Origin: Candidatus Uhrbacteria bacterium CG10_big_fil_rev_8_21_14_0_10_50_16
GTDB lineage: Bacteria; Patescibacteriota; Patescibacteriia; UBA9934; UBA11717
DNA: 64,000 nucleotides
Direction: 5' to 3'
Assembly: GCA_002774875.1 (NCBI GenBank)
Contig: PCYM01000006.1
Location: 17,434-81,433 of the forward strand
The notes below the pieces were generated by a model that was not told where the DNA came from, made no database searches, and saw nothing but the letters and a program-made list of their open reading frames with translations. Each line of letters begins with the position of its first letter. Positions within the stretch are counted from its first letter, which is position 1. Positions 1,966 to 38,384 of the stretch are shown one piece after another. The position numbers and the translations under genes were made by a program.

Positions 1966-2895
1966 TTATTTTTTCCGTTTTTTATCGTGATGTTTTTTGT
2001 GGATATCGCGCAAATGGTTGTTTGTAATGTGTGTGTAGATTTGTGTGGTTGTAATGGAGGCGTGACCCAGCATAGCTTGAACAGATCGAATATCGGCACC
2101 TCCTCGCAATAAATCCGTAGCAAACGTGTGCCTCATAGTGTGCGGCGACACATGTTTTGTAATGCCAGCTTTACGTGCATATCCATCCACTGTTCGTTGA
2201 ATAGATCTTGGCGTCAGCCCCTGATCCACATCTCTCCCTGCTTTTGCACGATCGTGTGAAACAAACAGGAAGGGAGCCGTGTCGGCACGCCTGCTGAGAT
2301 ATACCTTAATTGCATCACGCGCGCGTTCCGACAAAAAAACAATGCGTCGTTTTCCACCCTTTCCTGTAACCGTAAACTCATCGCGCTTTAAATTGACGTG
2401 ATCAATCTCGAGTCGTGCGAGCTCTGATACACGTAACCCCGTAGAAAAAAGCGTTTCCAAAATTGCCGAATCTCGTAACGACACGAGTCCCTTACCGCGT
2501 TTTGGAATGTCCAAGAGTCGGATCAGCTCGTCCTCCTCCAAAAACTCCACCTGCCGGTCCGGATGCTTTGCGAGCTCGATCTTCTCTGCCGCCAAAGACT
2601 TAATGTCCCGTTTTGCTAAATATTTTAAAAATGATCGGAGGGCGATAAGGTGATAGTTTTGCGTGGTGGCTTTTGGAGCTTCTTGGTCACGCCCGTGAAT
2701 TTCTCGATTTAACCACACACGAAACTTGCGTACCTTCTCAAGTGTAATATCCCCTGGCGCCGGCCAGTGCGCCCATGTAAAAAACCGTCGTAAATAAAAA
2801 TCATAGTTTCTCAGCGTCCGTGCGCTGCGCCCCTTCTCAATCTCTAGATGTTCAAAGAAATCAAGAAGCAATATTTCTGTTTTTGATGTTGCCAT
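1966..2895 (-). CDS. tyrosine recombinase, XerC/XerD family (phage-integrase fold)
   Basis: C-terminus HTMRHTFATDLLRGGADIRSVQAMLGHASITTTQIYTHI carries the R..H..R..Y catalytic box. Start placed at MATSKTEILL (ATG on minus at 2895), not the longer ORF. Confidence 0.85.
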   Translation of the reverse strand: MATSKTEILLLDFFEHLEIEKGRSARTLRNYDFYLRRFFTWAHWPAPGDITLEKVRKFRVWLNREIHGRDQEAPKATTQNYHLIALRSFLKYLAKRDIKSLAAEKIELAKHPDRQVEFLEEDELIRLLDIPKRGKGLVSLRDSAILETLFSTGLRVSELARLEIDHVNLKRDEFTVTGKGGKRRIVFLSERARDAIKVYLSRRADTAPFLFVSHDRAKAGRDVDQGLTPRSIQRTVDGYARKAGITKHVSPHTMRHTFATDLLRGGADIRSVQAMLGHASITTTQIYTHITNNHLRDIHKKHHDKKRKK

Positions 2896-2989
2896 ATCCG
2901 TATTATACGACACTTGGTGCAGACGAGCGAGTGTGAATTGACAAACAACCCAATTTACGTTAGGTTGGATCTGTTGGCGCTGCACACAA

Positions 2990-3470
2990 GGAGTCGACCG
3001 GCTTGTCGCAAGGAAAGCCCGACTAAGACTAGGAGCTATCGAATCAACCCCCTCCCCCTAATTCGAACGCTCAGGTCTATGGTGCCTGCTCCCGTGCATT
3101 CCCAGCAGGCCGGTCCGAGGTAACTCTCGGACCGGCCACTAACCTTCTCTTTCGGACCGCTAAACAGGCGGTTTTGCTGTTTCTTGACCCAGAACCAATG
3201 AAGGAGCAATGTTCTCTCGCACCATTCGACCGTAGGATGGAGCTTACCCGACCGACGATCACGTCCGGCCAATATCCCCCACCAGGGACTAGGCCGGGCG
3301 TGGGCTGGGTCACGCTATCCGACCGTCCACCTCTGGACGGTTTGTTGTTTCTACCCCTCAATCCACCTTCGGGATTGACAAATAACACGCTTTCTTGTAT
3401 ATTCCTAGCGTTATTCACCAACGATCGCTTGGTACCTGATCTCTCCGACGGGTCACTCGGCCTTCGCTAA
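2990..3470. ncRNA. candidate structured ncRNA (rnpB or ssrA possible; strand undetermined)
   Basis: ~480 bp with no credible ORF and higher GC than its flanks. Many hairpins (GGCCGGTCCGAGGTAACTCTCGGACCGGCC with a GNRA-type loop; TTCGAAT...ATTCGAA). The motif GGAAAGCCCGAC resembles the RNase P P4 strand GGAAAGUCCGGGC, but the complementary P4 strand was not found. Confidence 0.3.
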
Positions 3471-3479
3471 TCGATTACT

Positions 3480-3743
3480 ATGCTTACAAAGAAGCAAAAG
3501 GAGAATATTATTAGCAAATTTGCTACCCACAAGAGTGACACGGGGTCACCACAGGTGCAGGTTGCGATTCTTACCTCCGAGATCAAAGATCTTACGGGTC
3601 ACTTGCGAACACACAAAAAGGACCACTCATCCCGACGCGGACTCATCCGCAAGGTAAATGAGCGTCGCCGTTTGCTCAAATACTTGGAGCGAGAGGACCT
3701 CAAGGCCCACAAAAAGTTAAAAGAAGCGTTGAAGTTGAAGTAA
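3480..3743 (+). CDS. rpsO: 30S ribosomal protein S15
   Basis: 87 aa; ...GSPQVQVAILTSEIKDLTGHLRTHKKDHSSRRGLIRKVNERRRLLKYL is the S15 signature. Confidence 0.95.
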   Translation: MLTKKQKENIISKFATHKSDTGSPQVQVAILTSEIKDLTGHLRTHKKDHSSRRGLIRKVNERRRLLKYLEREDLKAHKKLKEALKLK

Positions 3744-8143: not shown

Positions 8144-8200
8144 TGTGGATAACCTGAGGGTAACTGTGGATTAATGTGGATAAGAAATTACTTATCCACA
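8144..8200. promoter_or_regulatory. cluster of four DnaA-box 9-mers
   Basis: TGTGGATAA 8144-8152, TGTGGATTA 8165-8173, TGTGGATAA 8175-8183 and inverted TTATCCACA 8192-8200. The first box is 7 bp after the stop of the preceding gene. Confidence 0.6.
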
Positions 8201-8263
8201 TTTTTGTTTAAAAATAACGAACAAGTTTTTGTTTTTTTATCTAAAATAAGCCAAATACATCCG

Positions 8264-8297: not shown

Positions 8298-8700
8298 TGT
8301 ACCCTTCAAACAATCGTTCTTTCAAAACCCCTACCACAGGGGTGTCTAGCGAAGACTGGTACATCTTGGCTGCGCACCTCTCCTCGCAACTGTTCTATTC
8401 CATTGTTTAAAAATAAAAACATAAAATTGGGATAAAACAAACGCCACGAAGGGCTCCCCTCAATACATGTTGGTCTCAAATTGGACCGGCGCTCGAGGGA
8501 TGCCATAGAACGGTTATGAGGGAAATGTTCTACCACGTGCAGGCAGCTCGTAGGCCGAGATCTGAAGACAATCCTTGTCGCTGGATCCCGGTCTACTGGA
8601 GCGCTCTTCTGCAGTGGACCTAACGTCCGACTGCCCGAGTCACCAGCGCTCCACCTATCTATAAAGGGAGACGCTCGTAGTTCAGGCAGTCTTTTCGTTT
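8298..8700 (+). ncRNA. candidate structured ncRNA downstream of a promoter (possible RNase P RNA-like)
   Basis: ~400 nt with no credible ORF and high GC. Hairpins CCCCTACCACAGGGG and GGACCGG...CCGGTC. The 3' segment CCCGGUCUACUGG resembles the RNase P P4-3' CCCGGCUUAUCGG. Confidence 0.3.
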
Positions 8701-15848: not shown

Positions 15849-15854
15849 ATAAAA

Positions 15855-15878
15855 CACCCCTCGATGAGGGGTGTTTTT
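15855..15878 (+). terminator. rho-independent terminator
   Basis: CACCCCTC-GATG-AGGGGTG followed by TTTTTGG. Confidence 0.6.
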
Positions 15879-38170: not shown

Positions 38171-38210
38171 AAATATCAAACATGTGACGATCGGCACATG
38201 TTTGATATTT
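38171..38210. repeat. palindromic element, family A (perfect 16-bp arms)
   Basis: AAATATCAAACATGTG-ACGATCGG-CACATGTTTGATATTT. Confidence 0.6.
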
Positions 38211-38274
38211 GGACACGATAGTAATTTTTAGGATTATCTGGATGCCTGACTTCAAACTCTCAATGAAAACGAAA

Positions 38275-38299
38275 CGCGCTCCAGGATTCCTGGAGCGCG
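38275..38299 (-). terminator. rho-independent terminator at the left edge of the GC-rich island
   Basis: CGCGCTCCAGG-ATTC-CTGGAGCGCG (11-bp stem); on the minus strand it is followed by TTTCGTTTTC. Confidence 0.6.
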
Positions 38300-38384
38300 T
38301 CGTTCGTGTTCTGATCTGACTCAACCCAGGACGGGGAGTCTGTTCTCTCGCGCACGATCAGCATTGCGCGAGGTGGGGGGCGGC

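What the first reader, a model, noticed from the sequence alone, without database searches (positions are those of the whole stretch)
2990..3470. 480-bp ORF-free structured region between the Xer-like recombinase and rpsO
No credible ORF; GC is above background. It contains an extended palindromic stem-loop GGCCGGTCCGAGGTAACTCTCGGACCGGCC, a GGAAAGCCCGAC motif similar to the RNase P P4-5' strand, and a TTCGAAT...ATTCGAA hairpin. Together with 8298-8700 and 61384-62004, this is one of three candidate homes for the expected rnpB, ssrA or ffs genes. It sits next to a tyrosine recombinase, and integrases often sit beside tmRNA.
Basis: partly seen in the sequence, partly recalled or inferred. Interest (0 to 1): 0.5.

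Follow-up and report, generated by a model that had tools for sequence, protein, structure and literature searches.

The report
Clade-specific small RNAs upstream of rpsO
The gene-free stretch is real structured non-coding RNA, but it is not RNase P RNA, tmRNA or SRP RNA: it holds two small RNA units found only in a few close Uhrbacteria relatives, followed by the promoter and a probable self-regulating leader of the ribosomal protein S15 gene.

Summary
The 584 bp between the tyrosine recombinase (ATG 2895, minus strand) and rpsO (3480) is non-coding, GC-rich (0.56-0.59 against about 0.47) and folds better than shuffles.

The interpretation does not hold. Rfam gives nothing for rnpB, ssrA, ffs or any other family, even at E<=10, and ARAGORN finds no tmRNA. 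The 'GGAAAG' P4-like motif is not kept in the nearest homologue.

Comparison with relatives from Candidatus Uhrbacteria resolves three plus-strand modules:
1. Promoter P1, then a roughly 210-nt multi-stem RNA with the 12-bp hairpin and terminator T1.
2. Promoter P2, then an 86-nt hairpin domain with an invariant 15-mer, CUUACCCGACCGACG, and terminator T2. In 5 sequences, 15 of its 27 pairs show compensatory changes.
3. The near-consensus rpsO promoter and a roughly 72-nt leader found upstream of rpsO in 17 Uhrbacteria loci. The leader has a GU/GC step and a CUCC loop complementary to an invariant GGAG at codons 7-8. It is probably an S15 autoregulatory leader.

Modules 1 and 2 occur in only four lineages. 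The recombinase-rpsO gap is variable in other relatives, and the function of these two modules is unknown. This is an ordinary-to-moderately interesting new small-RNA family.

The parts
2902..2907 (-). TATAAT -10 box of the recombinase gene, 6 nt upstream of its ATG (2895). This suggests a leaderless or near-leaderless mRNA.
   Evidence: Read from the sequence. The block ATTATACGACAC is conserved next to the recombinase start in window, L005, L067, L068, L070 and L090. Promoter function is inferred.
2938..2966 (+). Promoter P1: TTGACA, 17-nt spacer, TAGGTT. Predicted transcription start near 2973.
   Evidence: Sequence. The -35 box and spacing are conserved in L005 (TTGACA-N17-TAGTTT) and in L067/L070. 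It is below the stringency of the promoter scanner. It resembles the rpsO promoter: D3 at 80% over 20 nt, and the L090 rpsO promoter.
2976..3103 (+). Unit 1 multi-stem domain: a closing helix 2976-2985/3095-3103, an internal GNRA-tipped hairpin that holds the 'GGAAAG' motif, and the arm with the TCGAAT/ATTCGA hairpin.
   Evidence: RNAalifold of window plus L005. Together with the 3108-3137 hairpin, 43 pairs are 100% paired in both sequences, with 8 double changes against 0-1 in slid controls. The sample is only two sequences and the structure was derived from them.
3108..3137 (+). 12-bp perfect hairpin GGCCGGUCCGAG-GUAACU-CUCGGACCGGCC.
   Evidence: I1. There are three compensatory pair changes in L005. 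Analogous GC-rich hairpins occupy the same place in L067 and L070.
3154..3184 (+). Intrinsic terminator T1: stem 3154-3174 and tail UUUUGCUGUUUCUU.
   Evidence: Terminator scan. L005 keeps a hairpin of different sequence with the same U-rich tail.
3184..3212 (+). Promoter P2: TTGACC, 17-nt spacer, CAATGT. It abuts T1. Predicted transcription start near 3220.
   Evidence: Sequence. Equivalent TTGAC(G/A)-N17-TAAGGT/TAAAGT boxes sit 49-57 nt upstream of the 15-mer in L005, L067, L070 and L072. The window's -10 box is the weakest of the set.
3222..3240 (+). P0 hairpin (CCAUUC / GGAUGG). It uses the 5' strand of helix P1, so P0 and P1 exclude each other.
   Evidence: Minimum-free-energy folds of window and L005. 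P0 covaries: CCAUUC/GGAUGG in window, CCACC/GGUGG in L005, CCUCC/GGAGG in L067. It is absent in L070.
3235..3320 (+). Unit 2 conserved 86-nt domain: helices P1, P2, P3 and P3b. The invariant 15-mer CUUACCCGACCGACG is at 3243-3257, a 6-nt bulge reads GACGNN, the 3' strand reads GG(G/C)CUGG, and the apical loop ends in ACCA.
   Evidence: Covariance model R1 finds exactly five distinct instances (window, L005, L067, L070, L072) in about 300 kb of Uhrbacteria loci plus the window. 93.9% of cells are paired and 15/27 pairs have changes on both sides. 0/500 shuffles reach the observed value, and slid controls give 2-4.
3321..3352 (+). Intrinsic terminator T2: stem 3321-3342 and tail UGUUGUUUCU.
   Evidence: Terminator scan. 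The stem is conserved in L005 with a weaker U-tract.
3375..3403 (+). rpsO promoter: TTGACA, 17-nt spacer, TATATT (11/12 matches to consensus).
   Evidence: Promoter scan. Conserved across Uhrbacteria loci.
3408..3479 (+). rpsO 5' leader, with three helices:
- Helix I: 3422-3425 / 3463-3466.
- Helix II: 3428-3433 / 3455-3460, including the GU/GC step G3431.U3457 and G3432-C3456.
- Helix III: 3434-3438 / 3449-3453, with loop AUCUCUCCGA.
There is no Shine-Dalgarno sequence before the ATG.
   Evidence: Alignment and fold. Covariance model R2 hits 17 loci, always immediately upstream of rpsO and only in Uhrbacteria. 85.5% of cells are paired; covariation is 0.34 against 0.13 in shuffles, 0/500. The GU/GC step is an S15 recognition determinant (PMC4684408).
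3500..3504 (+). GGAGA inside rpsO (codons 7-8, AAG GAG), complementary to the leader loop UCUCC at 3442-3446. Proposed 3' strand of a pseudoknot that spans the start codon.
   Evidence: AAGGAGA is invariant in all 13 loci that carry the CUCC-loop leader, although synonymous AAA/GAA codons are available and the nearby Lys codons vary. The pairing itself is inferred.

Best explanation
The gap holds three same-strand transcription modules, stacked head to tail on the plus strand and pointing towards rpsO. None is rnpB, ssrA or ffs.

Module 1 (about 2973-3184). Promoter P1 drives a roughly 210-nt RNA made of a 130-nt multi-stem domain, a 12-bp hairpin and intrinsic terminator T1.

Module 2 (about 3220-3352). 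Promoter P2 drives a roughly 130-nt RNA. Its core is an 86-nt irregular hairpin with an invariant 15-nt 5' strand and bulge (CUUACCCGACCGACG), followed directly by terminator T2.

Module 3 (3375-3479). This is the strong rpsO promoter and a roughly 72-nt leader that most likely binds S15 to autoregulate rpsO. It carries a GU/GC mimic and a CUCC loop that can pair with GGAG at codons 7-8, which would trap the start codon in a pseudoknot.

Most likely mechanism for modules 1 and 2. They are lineage-specific small structured RNAs inserted between the recombinase promoter and the rpsO promoter.
- Shown: the structures are under selection, and the signals all point to the plus strand.
- Inferred: transcription, the transcript ends and the function.

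Function of module 2. I favour a cis-acting 5' leader or attenuator domain over a free trans-acting sRNA, at roughly 45:40.
- The same domain heads three different downstream 'cargos' in relatives: a terminator only, an orphan ORF whose Shine-Dalgarno sequence lies in the outer helix, and a 330-nt structured RNA.
- Its outer helix P1 competes with an upstream hairpin, P0.
For: Non-coding, and under selection:
- Window and L005 are only 56-67% identical at four-fold degenerate sites. The gap nonetheless aligns end to end, with invariant blocks of 12-18 nt and non-triplet indels.

Structure:
- Plus-strand fold z = -5.2.
- Unit 1: 43 pairs, 8 compensatory.
- Unit 2: 27 pairs, 15 with changes on both sides, 0/500 shuffles reaching the observed value.

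Strand:
- There are many conserved G.U pairs.
- All promoter-like boxes and both terminators are on the plus strand.
- The reverse-strand covariance-model score is only 17.6 bits.

Modularity:
- A P2-like promoter sits 49-57 nt upstream of the 15-mer in every instance.
- The downstream context differs between lineages.
- The P0/P1 alternative appears in folds and by covariation.

rpsO leader:
- Model R2 hits only directly upstream of rpsO, in 17 Uhrbacteria loci.
- Covariation supports the fold.
- The GU/GC step is invariant, and GU/GC is an S15 recognition determinant (PMC4684408).
- GGAG is invariant at codons 7-8.

Not a known family.
Against: - There are no transcription data. Promoters, transcript ends and read-through are all inferred from consensus matches. 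P1 (TAGGTT) and the window's P2 (CAATGT) have weak -10 boxes.
- Only two sequences support unit 1, and five (four lineages) support unit 2. The unit 2 alignment was fitted to the model, which inflates pair counts.
- A cis-regulatory role lacks a consistent regulated gene. rpsO already has its own strong promoter and leader. The L067 ORF is a singleton among 5.8 billion proteins.
- No trans target was found: complementarity to the 15-mer within the window is at chance level.
- The leader pseudoknot rests on invariant sequences, so nothing covaries to prove it. S15 binding is untested.
Confidence: 0.62

Rival explanations
1. The region encodes a housekeeping RNA (RNase P RNA, tmRNA or SRP RNA) that is too divergent in candidate-phyla-radiation (CPR) bacteria for standard models.
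For: - The size is in the right range: about 380 nt from P1 to T2.
- GC content and folding energy are high.
- A GGAAAGCCCGAC string resembles the P4 5' strand.
- None of the three RNAs is detected anywhere in the 64-kb window.
Against: - No Rfam hit even at E<=10, and none in the homologous loci. No ARAGORN hit.
- The P4-like string is not conserved in L005 and has no 3' partner. There is no tag frame and no T-loop.
- An internal promoter and two terminators split the region.
- The element is absent from the same slot in L010, L066, L068, L073, L090 and L093. The covariance model finds no other copy in about 300 kb of related loci.
- Its sequence blocks are confined to four closely related lineages.
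Confidence: 0.03
2. Modules 1 and 2 are free-standing trans-acting small RNAs, either base-pairing or protein-sequestering. Each has its own promoter and terminator and has nothing to do with rpsO.
For: - In window and L005 each unit has the classic sRNA gene anatomy: promoter, structured body of 130-210 nt, and intrinsic terminator.
- Relatives carry unrelated sRNA-like units in the same slot: L068 about 150 nt, L090 about 190 nt.
- An invariant 15-mer could be a seed or a protein-binding site.
Against: - The 15-mer is largely base-paired in P2 rather than exposed.
- No complementary target above chance was found in the window, though only 64 kb of the genome was searchable.
- In L067 and L070 the same domain is the 5' end of much longer transcripts with unrelated downstream parts. 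That suits a cis-acting module better.
Confidence: 0.3
3. The region is a decayed protein-coding gene, for example a remnant of the small gene that fills this slot in L006 and L009.
For: - L006 and L009 carry a plus-strand gene of 127-149 aa in exactly this slot.
- Mechanical ORFs of 98 and 114 aa span the window region.
- In one frame, window and L005 share a peptide-like string, LTRPT.TSG.YP...PGVGWVT. This is my own reading of the alignments.
Against: - tblastn of the L006 and L009 proteins against the window and L005 region gives only chance hits, E>=0.2 in a 1.2-kb database.
- No Pfam match.
- Indels are not multiples of three. Substitutions sit in compensating stem positions rather than third codon positions.
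- In L067 and L070 the peptide similarity stops at the 15-mer, while the RNA helices persist with entirely different sequences.
Confidence: 0.03
4. The hairpins act as DNA. They could be recombination sites or cassette ends used by the adjacent tyrosine recombinase (integron-like or dif-like), or a small mobile element. This would explain why the slot's content varies.
For: - The slot next to the recombinase differs in nearly every relative: about 100 bp, 353 bp, 373 bp, 584 bp, 738 bp, 907 bp, or a protein gene.
- The geometry resembles intI plus a cassette array: a divergent recombinase with the inserts beside it.
- P1 and the rpsO promoter resemble each other like a flanking direct repeat (D3).
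Against: - The recombinase is a phylum-wide conserved Xer-type gene that keeps this position with or without inserts.
- The stems contain many conserved G.U pairs, which would be mismatches on the other DNA strand.
- The hairpins lack attC features: no extrahelical bases, and the 12-bp stem is a perfect palindrome.
- There is no second copy of any part in the window or in the IMG/VR viral contigs.
- The units carry promoters and terminators, which integron cassettes normally lack.
Confidence: 0.05

Closest known systems
Autoregulatory S15 (rpsO) mRNA leaders: the E. coli pseudoknot (Rfam RF00114), the Geobacillus and Thermus three-way-junction types, and the Rhizobiales and Actinobacteria types (PMC4137082, PMC4684408)
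   Same: - The position: a 5' UTR immediately upstream of rpsO.
- It is conserved across a phylum-level group.
- It has a helix with a GU/GC step like 16S helix 22.
- A hairpin loop can pair with sequence around the start of translation, which is the pseudoknot or 'entrapment' logic of the E. coli leader.
   Different: - No Rfam S15 family matches.
- The secondary structure is a nested three-helix stack with a 10-nt CUCC loop.
- There is no Shine-Dalgarno sequence.
- The proposed pseudoknot partner lies inside the coding region, at +21 to +25.
- Binding and regulation are untested.
Transcription-attenuating riboswitches and protein-binding leaders
   Same: This comparison concerns unit 2.
- It is a promoter-proximal conserved aptamer-like domain with covarying helices and an invariant internal loop or bulge.
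- The outer helix P1 abuts an intrinsic terminator in window and L005, or contains the Shine-Dalgarno sequence in L067.
- A competing P0 helix is present.
- The 'expression platforms' vary between relatives.
   Different: - No match to any Rfam riboswitch or leader.
- There is no consistent downstream gene class.
- Only four lineages carry it.
- The competing helix lies upstream of the domain, not downstream.
- The ligand or partner is unknown.
Bacterial intergenic sRNA genes with sigma-70 promoters and Rho-independent terminators
   Same: Units 1 and 2 each have their own promoter-like boxes, a structured body of 130-210 nt, a terminator, and a narrow phylogenetic range.
   Different: - Two such units are stacked in tandem directly upstream of a third promoter.
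- The conserved segment is mostly paired.
- The same 5' domain heads longer RNAs in relatives.
RNase P RNA, tmRNA and SRP RNA
   Same: Only the overall size, the GC-richness, the high degree of structure, and a chance GGAAAG.CC string.
   Different: They fail every defining sequence or structure test applied; see the membership table. The distribution is also clade-restricted rather than universal.

Membership tests
Bacterial RNase P RNA (rnpB; Rfam RF00010, RF00011) | A covariance-model match to a type A or type B RNase P RNA | tested here: not met
   No hit at gathering thresholds in the window. None at E<=10 in 2850-3550 on either strand. None at E<=5 in the homologous loci.
Bacterial RNase P RNA (rnpB; Rfam RF00010, RF00011) | A universally conserved P4 helix: 5' GGAAAGUCC and 3' ACAGNA..GGCUUA strands that pair at long range | tested here: not met
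   GGAAAGCCC (3012-3020) reads GAAGGCAGCCC in L005 and lies at the tip of a local hairpin. No plus-strand 3' partner motif exists.
Bacterial RNase P RNA (rnpB; Rfam RF00010, RF00011) | One uninterrupted RNA of about 330-400 nt, present in all relatives | tested here: not met
   The region has an internal terminator T1, promoter P2 and terminator T2. The element is absent from the slot in most relatives, and the covariance model does not find it elsewhere in their available loci. Complete genomes were not available.
tmRNA (ssrA) | A tRNA-like domain (acceptor stem, T-arm, 3' CCA) detectable by ARAGORN or Rfam, including permuted forms | tested here: not met
   ARAGORN found five tRNAs and no tmRNA. 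Rfam found none. No GTTCRANYC-type T-loop exists on the plus strand.
tmRNA (ssrA) | A tag reading frame ending in ..Ala-Ala-stop | tested here: not met
   No GCN-GCN-stop occurs on either strand of 2896-3479.
SRP RNA (ffs) | A helix 8 with conserved GGAA/GNRA tetraloop and symmetric and asymmetric loops, or a covariance-model match to RF00169 or RF01854 | tested here: not met
   No Rfam hit. No helix-8 motif was found by pattern search. The loop of the 12-bp hairpin is not conserved: GUAACU against AUCGC.
S15 autoregulatory leader (functional class; several unrelated structures) | Located in the 5' UTR of rpsO and conserved with it | tested here: met
   Model R2 gives 17 hits, each ending at the rpsO start codon, in Uhrbacteria loci. 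It gives none in the non-Uhrbacteria rpsO loci searched.
S15 autoregulatory leader (functional class; several unrelated structures) | A mimic of the 16S rRNA S15 site (a GU/GC step and/or a three-way junction) | tested here: met
   G.U is followed by G-C in helix II in 15 of 16 distinct sequences (columns 25/69 and 26/68; window G3431.U3457 and G3432-C3456). The determinant is as described in PMC4684408. No junction mimic is evident.
S15 autoregulatory leader (functional class; several unrelated structures) | S15 binds the leader and represses translation | not testable with these tools
   This needs EMSA or filter binding and a reporter assay.
E. coli-type S15 leader (Rfam RF00114) | Sequence and structure match to the family model | tested here: not met
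   No hit at E<=10.
Riboswitch (any described class) | A match to a described aptamer family | tested here: not met
   There are no Rfam matches. The preQ1-II hit at E=4.1 (17.8 bits against a 47-bit threshold) is chance.
Riboswitch (any described class) | A conserved aptamer with varying expression platforms upstream of functionally related genes | tested here: inconclusive
   A conserved domain and varying downstream parts are seen. The downstream 'genes' are unrelated or absent: a terminator, a singleton ORF, and a structured RNA.
Integron attC or Xer dif site | An imperfect palindrome with conserved core sites and extrahelical bases (attC), or a 28-bp dif-like site, recurring at cassette ends | tested here: not met
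   The 12-bp stem is perfect. No repeated core was found within the region or the window. The stems use G.U pairs specific to one strand.

The most novel reading that the evidence does not exclude
Unit 2 (3220-3352) is a previously undescribed RNA switch. It would be an 86-nt ligand- or protein-sensing domain with an invariant CUUACCCGACCGACG pocket. Two mutually exclusive helices, P0 and P1, both supported by covariation, would gate a terminator (window, L005) or a Shine-Dalgarno sequence (L067). It would then be a conditional extra input into rpsO-pnp expression in a CPR lineage. A still bolder reading that is not excluded: the recombinase-rpsO junction is a capture site where promoter-bearing small-RNA modules are exchanged.
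Probability: 0.15. Interest if true: 0.6.

Novelty: new member of a known kind. Interest (0 to 1): 0.33.

Why it matters
- **Annotation.** The result removes a false lead. This gap should not be annotated as rnpB, ssrA or ffs, and none of the three is detectable in this 64-kb window.
- **New RNA motifs in CPR bacteria.** It adds two unannotated structured RNA motifs, with covariation support, from bacteria in which almost no non-coding RNAs have been described.
- **A possible new S15 leader.** It points to a phylum-specific rpsO leader that would be one more independent solution to S15 autoregulation. That is a textbook case of convergent RNA evolution (PMC4137082, PMC5100602). This version works without a Shine-Dalgarno sequence.
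- **Limits.** The practical value is modest. The two small RNAs are confined to a handful of uncultured lineages, and their function is unknown.

Tried and rejected
1. **Known RNA families.**
   - Rfam gathering scan of the window.
   - Rfam scan of the region at E<=10.
   - Rfam scans of 18 and then 5 related loci. The only near-hits were rliD antisense matches inside pnp.
   - ARAGORN.
   - Motif searches for a tag frame, T-loop, P4 and SRP helix 8.

2. **Decayed gene.**
   - tblastn of the slot proteins of L006 and L009, and of the L067 and L073 ORFs, against the region and all loci gave nothing.
   - Pfam on all candidate ORFs gave nothing.
   - The L067 ORF is a singleton.
   - The shared LTRPT... 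peptide reading was considered. It was rejected because it does not extend to L067 and L070, while the helices do.

3. **More homologues.**
   - The metagenome scan with CTTACCCGACCGACGN{30,60}GGNYTGG returned 16 loci. All were chance matches in unrelated coding DNA.
   - That scan did not return a JGI contig known to carry the motif (L003). The collection is therefore incomplete and the negative result is weak.
   - Viral-contig scans of the 15-mer and of TATGGTGCCTGCTC gave chance hits only.
   - Contig look-ups for recombinase relatives P0002-P0012 and for cluster members yielded L067, L070 and L072 and no further variants.

4. **Paralogy of units 1 and 2.** Local and global alignments are not better than shuffles, apart from the terminator tails.

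5. **Other copies in the window.** None were found.

6. **A trans target for the 15-mer in the window.** Complementarity is at chance level.

7. **Other partner-dependent RNAs.** I considered a retron msr/msd, an IS110 bridge RNA, a TnpB/IscB omega RNA and an RNA partner of the recombinase.
   - No reverse transcriptase, DEDD recombinase or nuclease gene is adjacent.
   - The recombinase keeps its place in relatives that lack the RNA.

8. **Literature.** Searches for CPR or Patescibacteria non-coding RNAs found nothing relevant.
Full report
**1. What is in the sequence**

The region lies between a tyrosine recombinase on the minus strand and rpsO on the plus strand. Public assemblies call the recombinase as 309 aa starting at ATG 2895. 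The longer GTG-started ORF that reaches 2985 is a mechanical extension. The real gap is therefore 2896-3479, or 584 bp.

- The 12-bp perfect hairpin is at 3108-3137.
- GGAAAGCCCGAC is at 3012-3023, and the TCGAAT/ATTCGA arms are at 3033-3044 and 3061-3072.
- GC reaches 0.56-0.59 inside the region, against about 0.43-0.50 around it.
- The plus strand of 2970-3355 folds 5.2 sd better than dinucleotide shuffles, and the minus strand 3.3 sd better.
- Perfect hairpins of at least 10 bp are about 50-fold more frequent in the window than in shuffles. Those of at least 12 bp number only five, and this is one of them.

**2. It is not a known RNA**

- At Rfam gathering thresholds the whole window yields five tRNAs and nothing else.
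- A permissive scan of 2850-3550 lists four hits with E = 2.7-5.8, far below their thresholds. None is RNase P, tmRNA, SRP, 6S or a known S15 leader.
- ARAGORN finds no tmRNA.
- Direct motif searches find no Ala-Ala-stop tag frame, no T-loop, no 3' strand for a P4 helix and no SRP helix-8 motif.

**3. Source organism and homologues**

Identical copies of the gap occur in ENA, Logan and JGI contigs.

The rpsO protein identifies the organism as Candidatus Uhrbacteria (CPR/Patescibacteria). The recombinase is PIR47420.1 of Candidatus Uhrbacteria bacterium CG10_big_fil_rev_8_21_14_0_10.

The MAG UBA11717 (locus L005; S15 98% and recombinase 93% identical) has a homologous gap that aligns end to end. 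Four-fold degenerate sites in the flanking genes are only 56-67% identical between the two genomes. The invariant blocks of 12-18 nt inside the gap therefore indicate purifying selection.

Indels are 1, 2, 4, 6 and 7 nt long, and substitutions fall in compensating stem positions. This excludes a coding region. Pfam finds nothing in the mechanical ORFs.

**4. Anatomy on the plus strand**

*Module 1*
- P1 is TTGACA-N17-TAGGTT at 2938-2966.
- A multi-stem domain follows at 2976-3103, then the 12-bp hairpin at 3108-3137.
- Terminator T1 is at 3154-3184.
- On the window/L005 alignment, all 43 proposed pairs form in both sequences. Eight have changes on both sides, against 0-1 when the partners are slid by 1-3 columns.
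- The caveat is that only two sequences are available and the structure was derived from them.
- The 'RNase P-like' GGAAAG is the variable tip of a small hairpin. In the window it reads GGCUUgUC-GCAA-GGaAAGCC. In L005 it reads GGCUGC-GAAG-GCAGCC.

*Module 2*
- P2 is TTGACC-N17-CAATGT at 3184-3212. Relatives have TAAGGT or TAAAGT as the -10 box.
- It abuts T1.
- Next come a P0 hairpin at 3222-3240, an 86-nt domain at 3235-3320, and terminator T2 at 3321-3352.

*Module 3*
- The near-consensus rpsO promoter is at 3375-3403 (11/12 matches).
- The leader is at 3408-3479.

On the other side of the gap, a conserved TATAAT (2907-2902, minus strand) sits 6 nt from the recombinase ATG.

**5. The 86-nt domain of unit 2**

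Contig look-ups for the closest recombinase relatives gave three more carriers: L067, L070 and L072.

All five sequences share an invariant CTTACCCGACCGACG. In every case a TTGAC-N17 promoter lies 49-57 nt upstream of it.

A covariance model built from window plus L005 recovers exactly these five in about 300 kb of Uhrbacteria loci plus the window, and nothing else.

On the resulting alignment:
- 93.9% of cells are paired.
- 15 of 27 pairs show changes on both sides.
- No shuffle out of 500 reaches the observed values.
- Slid controls give 2-4 such pairs.

P1, P3 and P3b have entirely different sequences in the four lineages. P2 and the GACGNN bulge are invariant. The apical loop ends in ACCA in four of the five sequences. 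The alignment was fitted to the model, and the sample is small.

**6. What follows the domain**

The downstream context differs between lineages:
- In window and L005 it is a terminator.
- In L067 it is a 116-aa ORF with a GGGAG Shine-Dalgarno sequence lying in the outer helix. That ORF is a singleton among 5.8 billion proteins, and its region is unstructured (z = -0.35).
- In L070 and L072 it is a further 330 nt of strongly structured RNA (z = -6.7). This RNA has 1-nt indels and compensatory changes between the two strains, and no Rfam match.

In three lineages an upstream hairpin, P0, uses the 5' strand of P1. It also covaries: CCAUUC/GGAUGG, CCACC/GGUGG and CCUCC/GGAGG.

A conserved 5' domain, two competing helices and variable downstream parts look like a cis-acting leader or switch. 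There is, however, no consistent regulated gene. In the window the unit could equally be a free 130-nt sRNA. No target complementarity above chance exists in the window.

**7. The slot is variable**

Across Uhrbacteria the recombinase and rpsO stay adjacent, but the gap between them varies:
- About 100-126 bp in L010, L066, L017 and L093.
- An unrelated sRNA-like unit with its own promoter and terminator in L068 (about 150 nt) and L090 (about 190 nt).
- A small orphan protein gene in L006 and L009.
- A 265-aa gene in L073.

The L006 and L009 proteins have no similarity to the window region.

P1 resembles the rpsO promoter of the window (D3) and of L090. The insert may therefore have arisen beside a duplicated rpsO promoter. 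Units 1 and 2 are not detectably paralogous.

The stems contain conserved G.U pairs, and every transcription signal is on the plus strand. A DNA-level (att or attC-like) reading is therefore unlikely, although the variability next to a recombinase is worth noting.

**8. The rpsO leader**

A model built from 12 leaders hits 17 loci. Every hit ends at the rpsO start codon, and all are in Uhrbacteria. None of the non-Uhrbacteria rpsO loci searched is hit.

The three nested helices are 85.5% paired. Their covariation score is 0.34, against 0.13 in shuffles (0/500).

Helix II carries an almost invariant G.U followed by G-C. This GU/GC step is one of the two S15 recognition determinants in 16S rRNA, and several S15 mRNA leaders mimic it (PMC4684408).

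The 10-nt loop of helix III always contains CUCC. Codons 7-8 of rpsO are always AAG GAG in the 13 loci with this leader, although the neighbouring Lys codons vary. There is no Shine-Dalgarno sequence upstream of the ATG.

I infer an S15-stabilised pseudoknot across the start codon, analogous in logic to the E. coli rpsO operator (PMC3985624, PMC4137082). No Rfam S15 family matches. This would be another independent S15 leader type. Binding is untested, and the pseudoknot has no covariation because both strands are invariant.

**9. Limits of the homology search**

The metagenome pattern scan returned only chance matches. It also failed to return a JGI contig that carries the motif (L003), so that collection is incomplete.

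Viral-contig scans gave only chance matches.

'Restricted to four lineages' therefore means restricted within the data I could reach.

**10. Verdict**

The specific interpretation as rnpB, ssrA or ffs is not supported.

The region is a stack of lineage-specific small structured RNA modules and a phylum-wide rpsO leader. The structures and their strand are shown. Transcription, transcript ends and function are inferred.

This is a new RNA family of an ordinary kind, with a modest chance that unit 2 is a genuine new switch. The S15 leader is the most readily testable part.

Noticed in passing
window 2893-2913 (minus strand); also L005, L067, L068, L070, L090: The recombinase gene has a conserved TATAAT only 6 nt upstream of its ATG. 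The block ATTATACGACAC is invariant in all relatives examined. This suggests a leaderless mRNA.
   Followed up: partly
window 3480-3510: rpsO has no Shine-Dalgarno sequence upstream of its ATG. It carries an invariant AAGGAGA at +17 to +25, inside the coding region, which is complementary to the CUCC loop of its leader.
   Followed up: partly
L070:1880-2200 (minus strand) and L072 equivalent: About 330 nt of strongly structured RNA (z = -6.7) lies downstream of the conserved unit 2 domain and ends in a strong terminator. The two strains differ by compensatory changes and 1-nt indels. There is no Rfam match and its identity is unknown.
   Followed up: partly
L068:2275-2440 and L090:2255-2470 (minus strand): Other Uhrbacteria carry unrelated sRNA-like units of about 150-190 nt, each with its own promoter and terminator, in the same recombinase-rpsO slot. 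L006 and L009 instead carry a small orphan protein of 127-149 aa (36% identical to each other, no Pfam match for the L009 protein tested).
   Followed up: partly
window 8173-8202, 15851-15877, 38171-38210, 38274-38300: These are the only other perfect hairpins of at least 12 bp in the window. The pair around 38171-38300 is the longest, at 15-16 bp. I did not examine them.
   Followed up: no
whole window: No rnpB, ssrA or ffs reaches Rfam gathering thresholds anywhere in the 64 kb. I did not scan them at permissive thresholds.
   Followed up: no
L005:3834-4022, L068:700-884, L070:343-518, L090:838-1142: Sub-threshold Rfam matches to the Listeria antisense RNA rliD lie inside the pnp coding sequence. 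They probably reflect pnp sequence conservation rather than an RNA gene.
   Followed up: no
Metagenome-contig collection: The pattern scan did not return JGI contig Ga0210019_1030672 (locus L003), which carries an exact match. Negative results from that collection are therefore incomplete.
   Followed up: no
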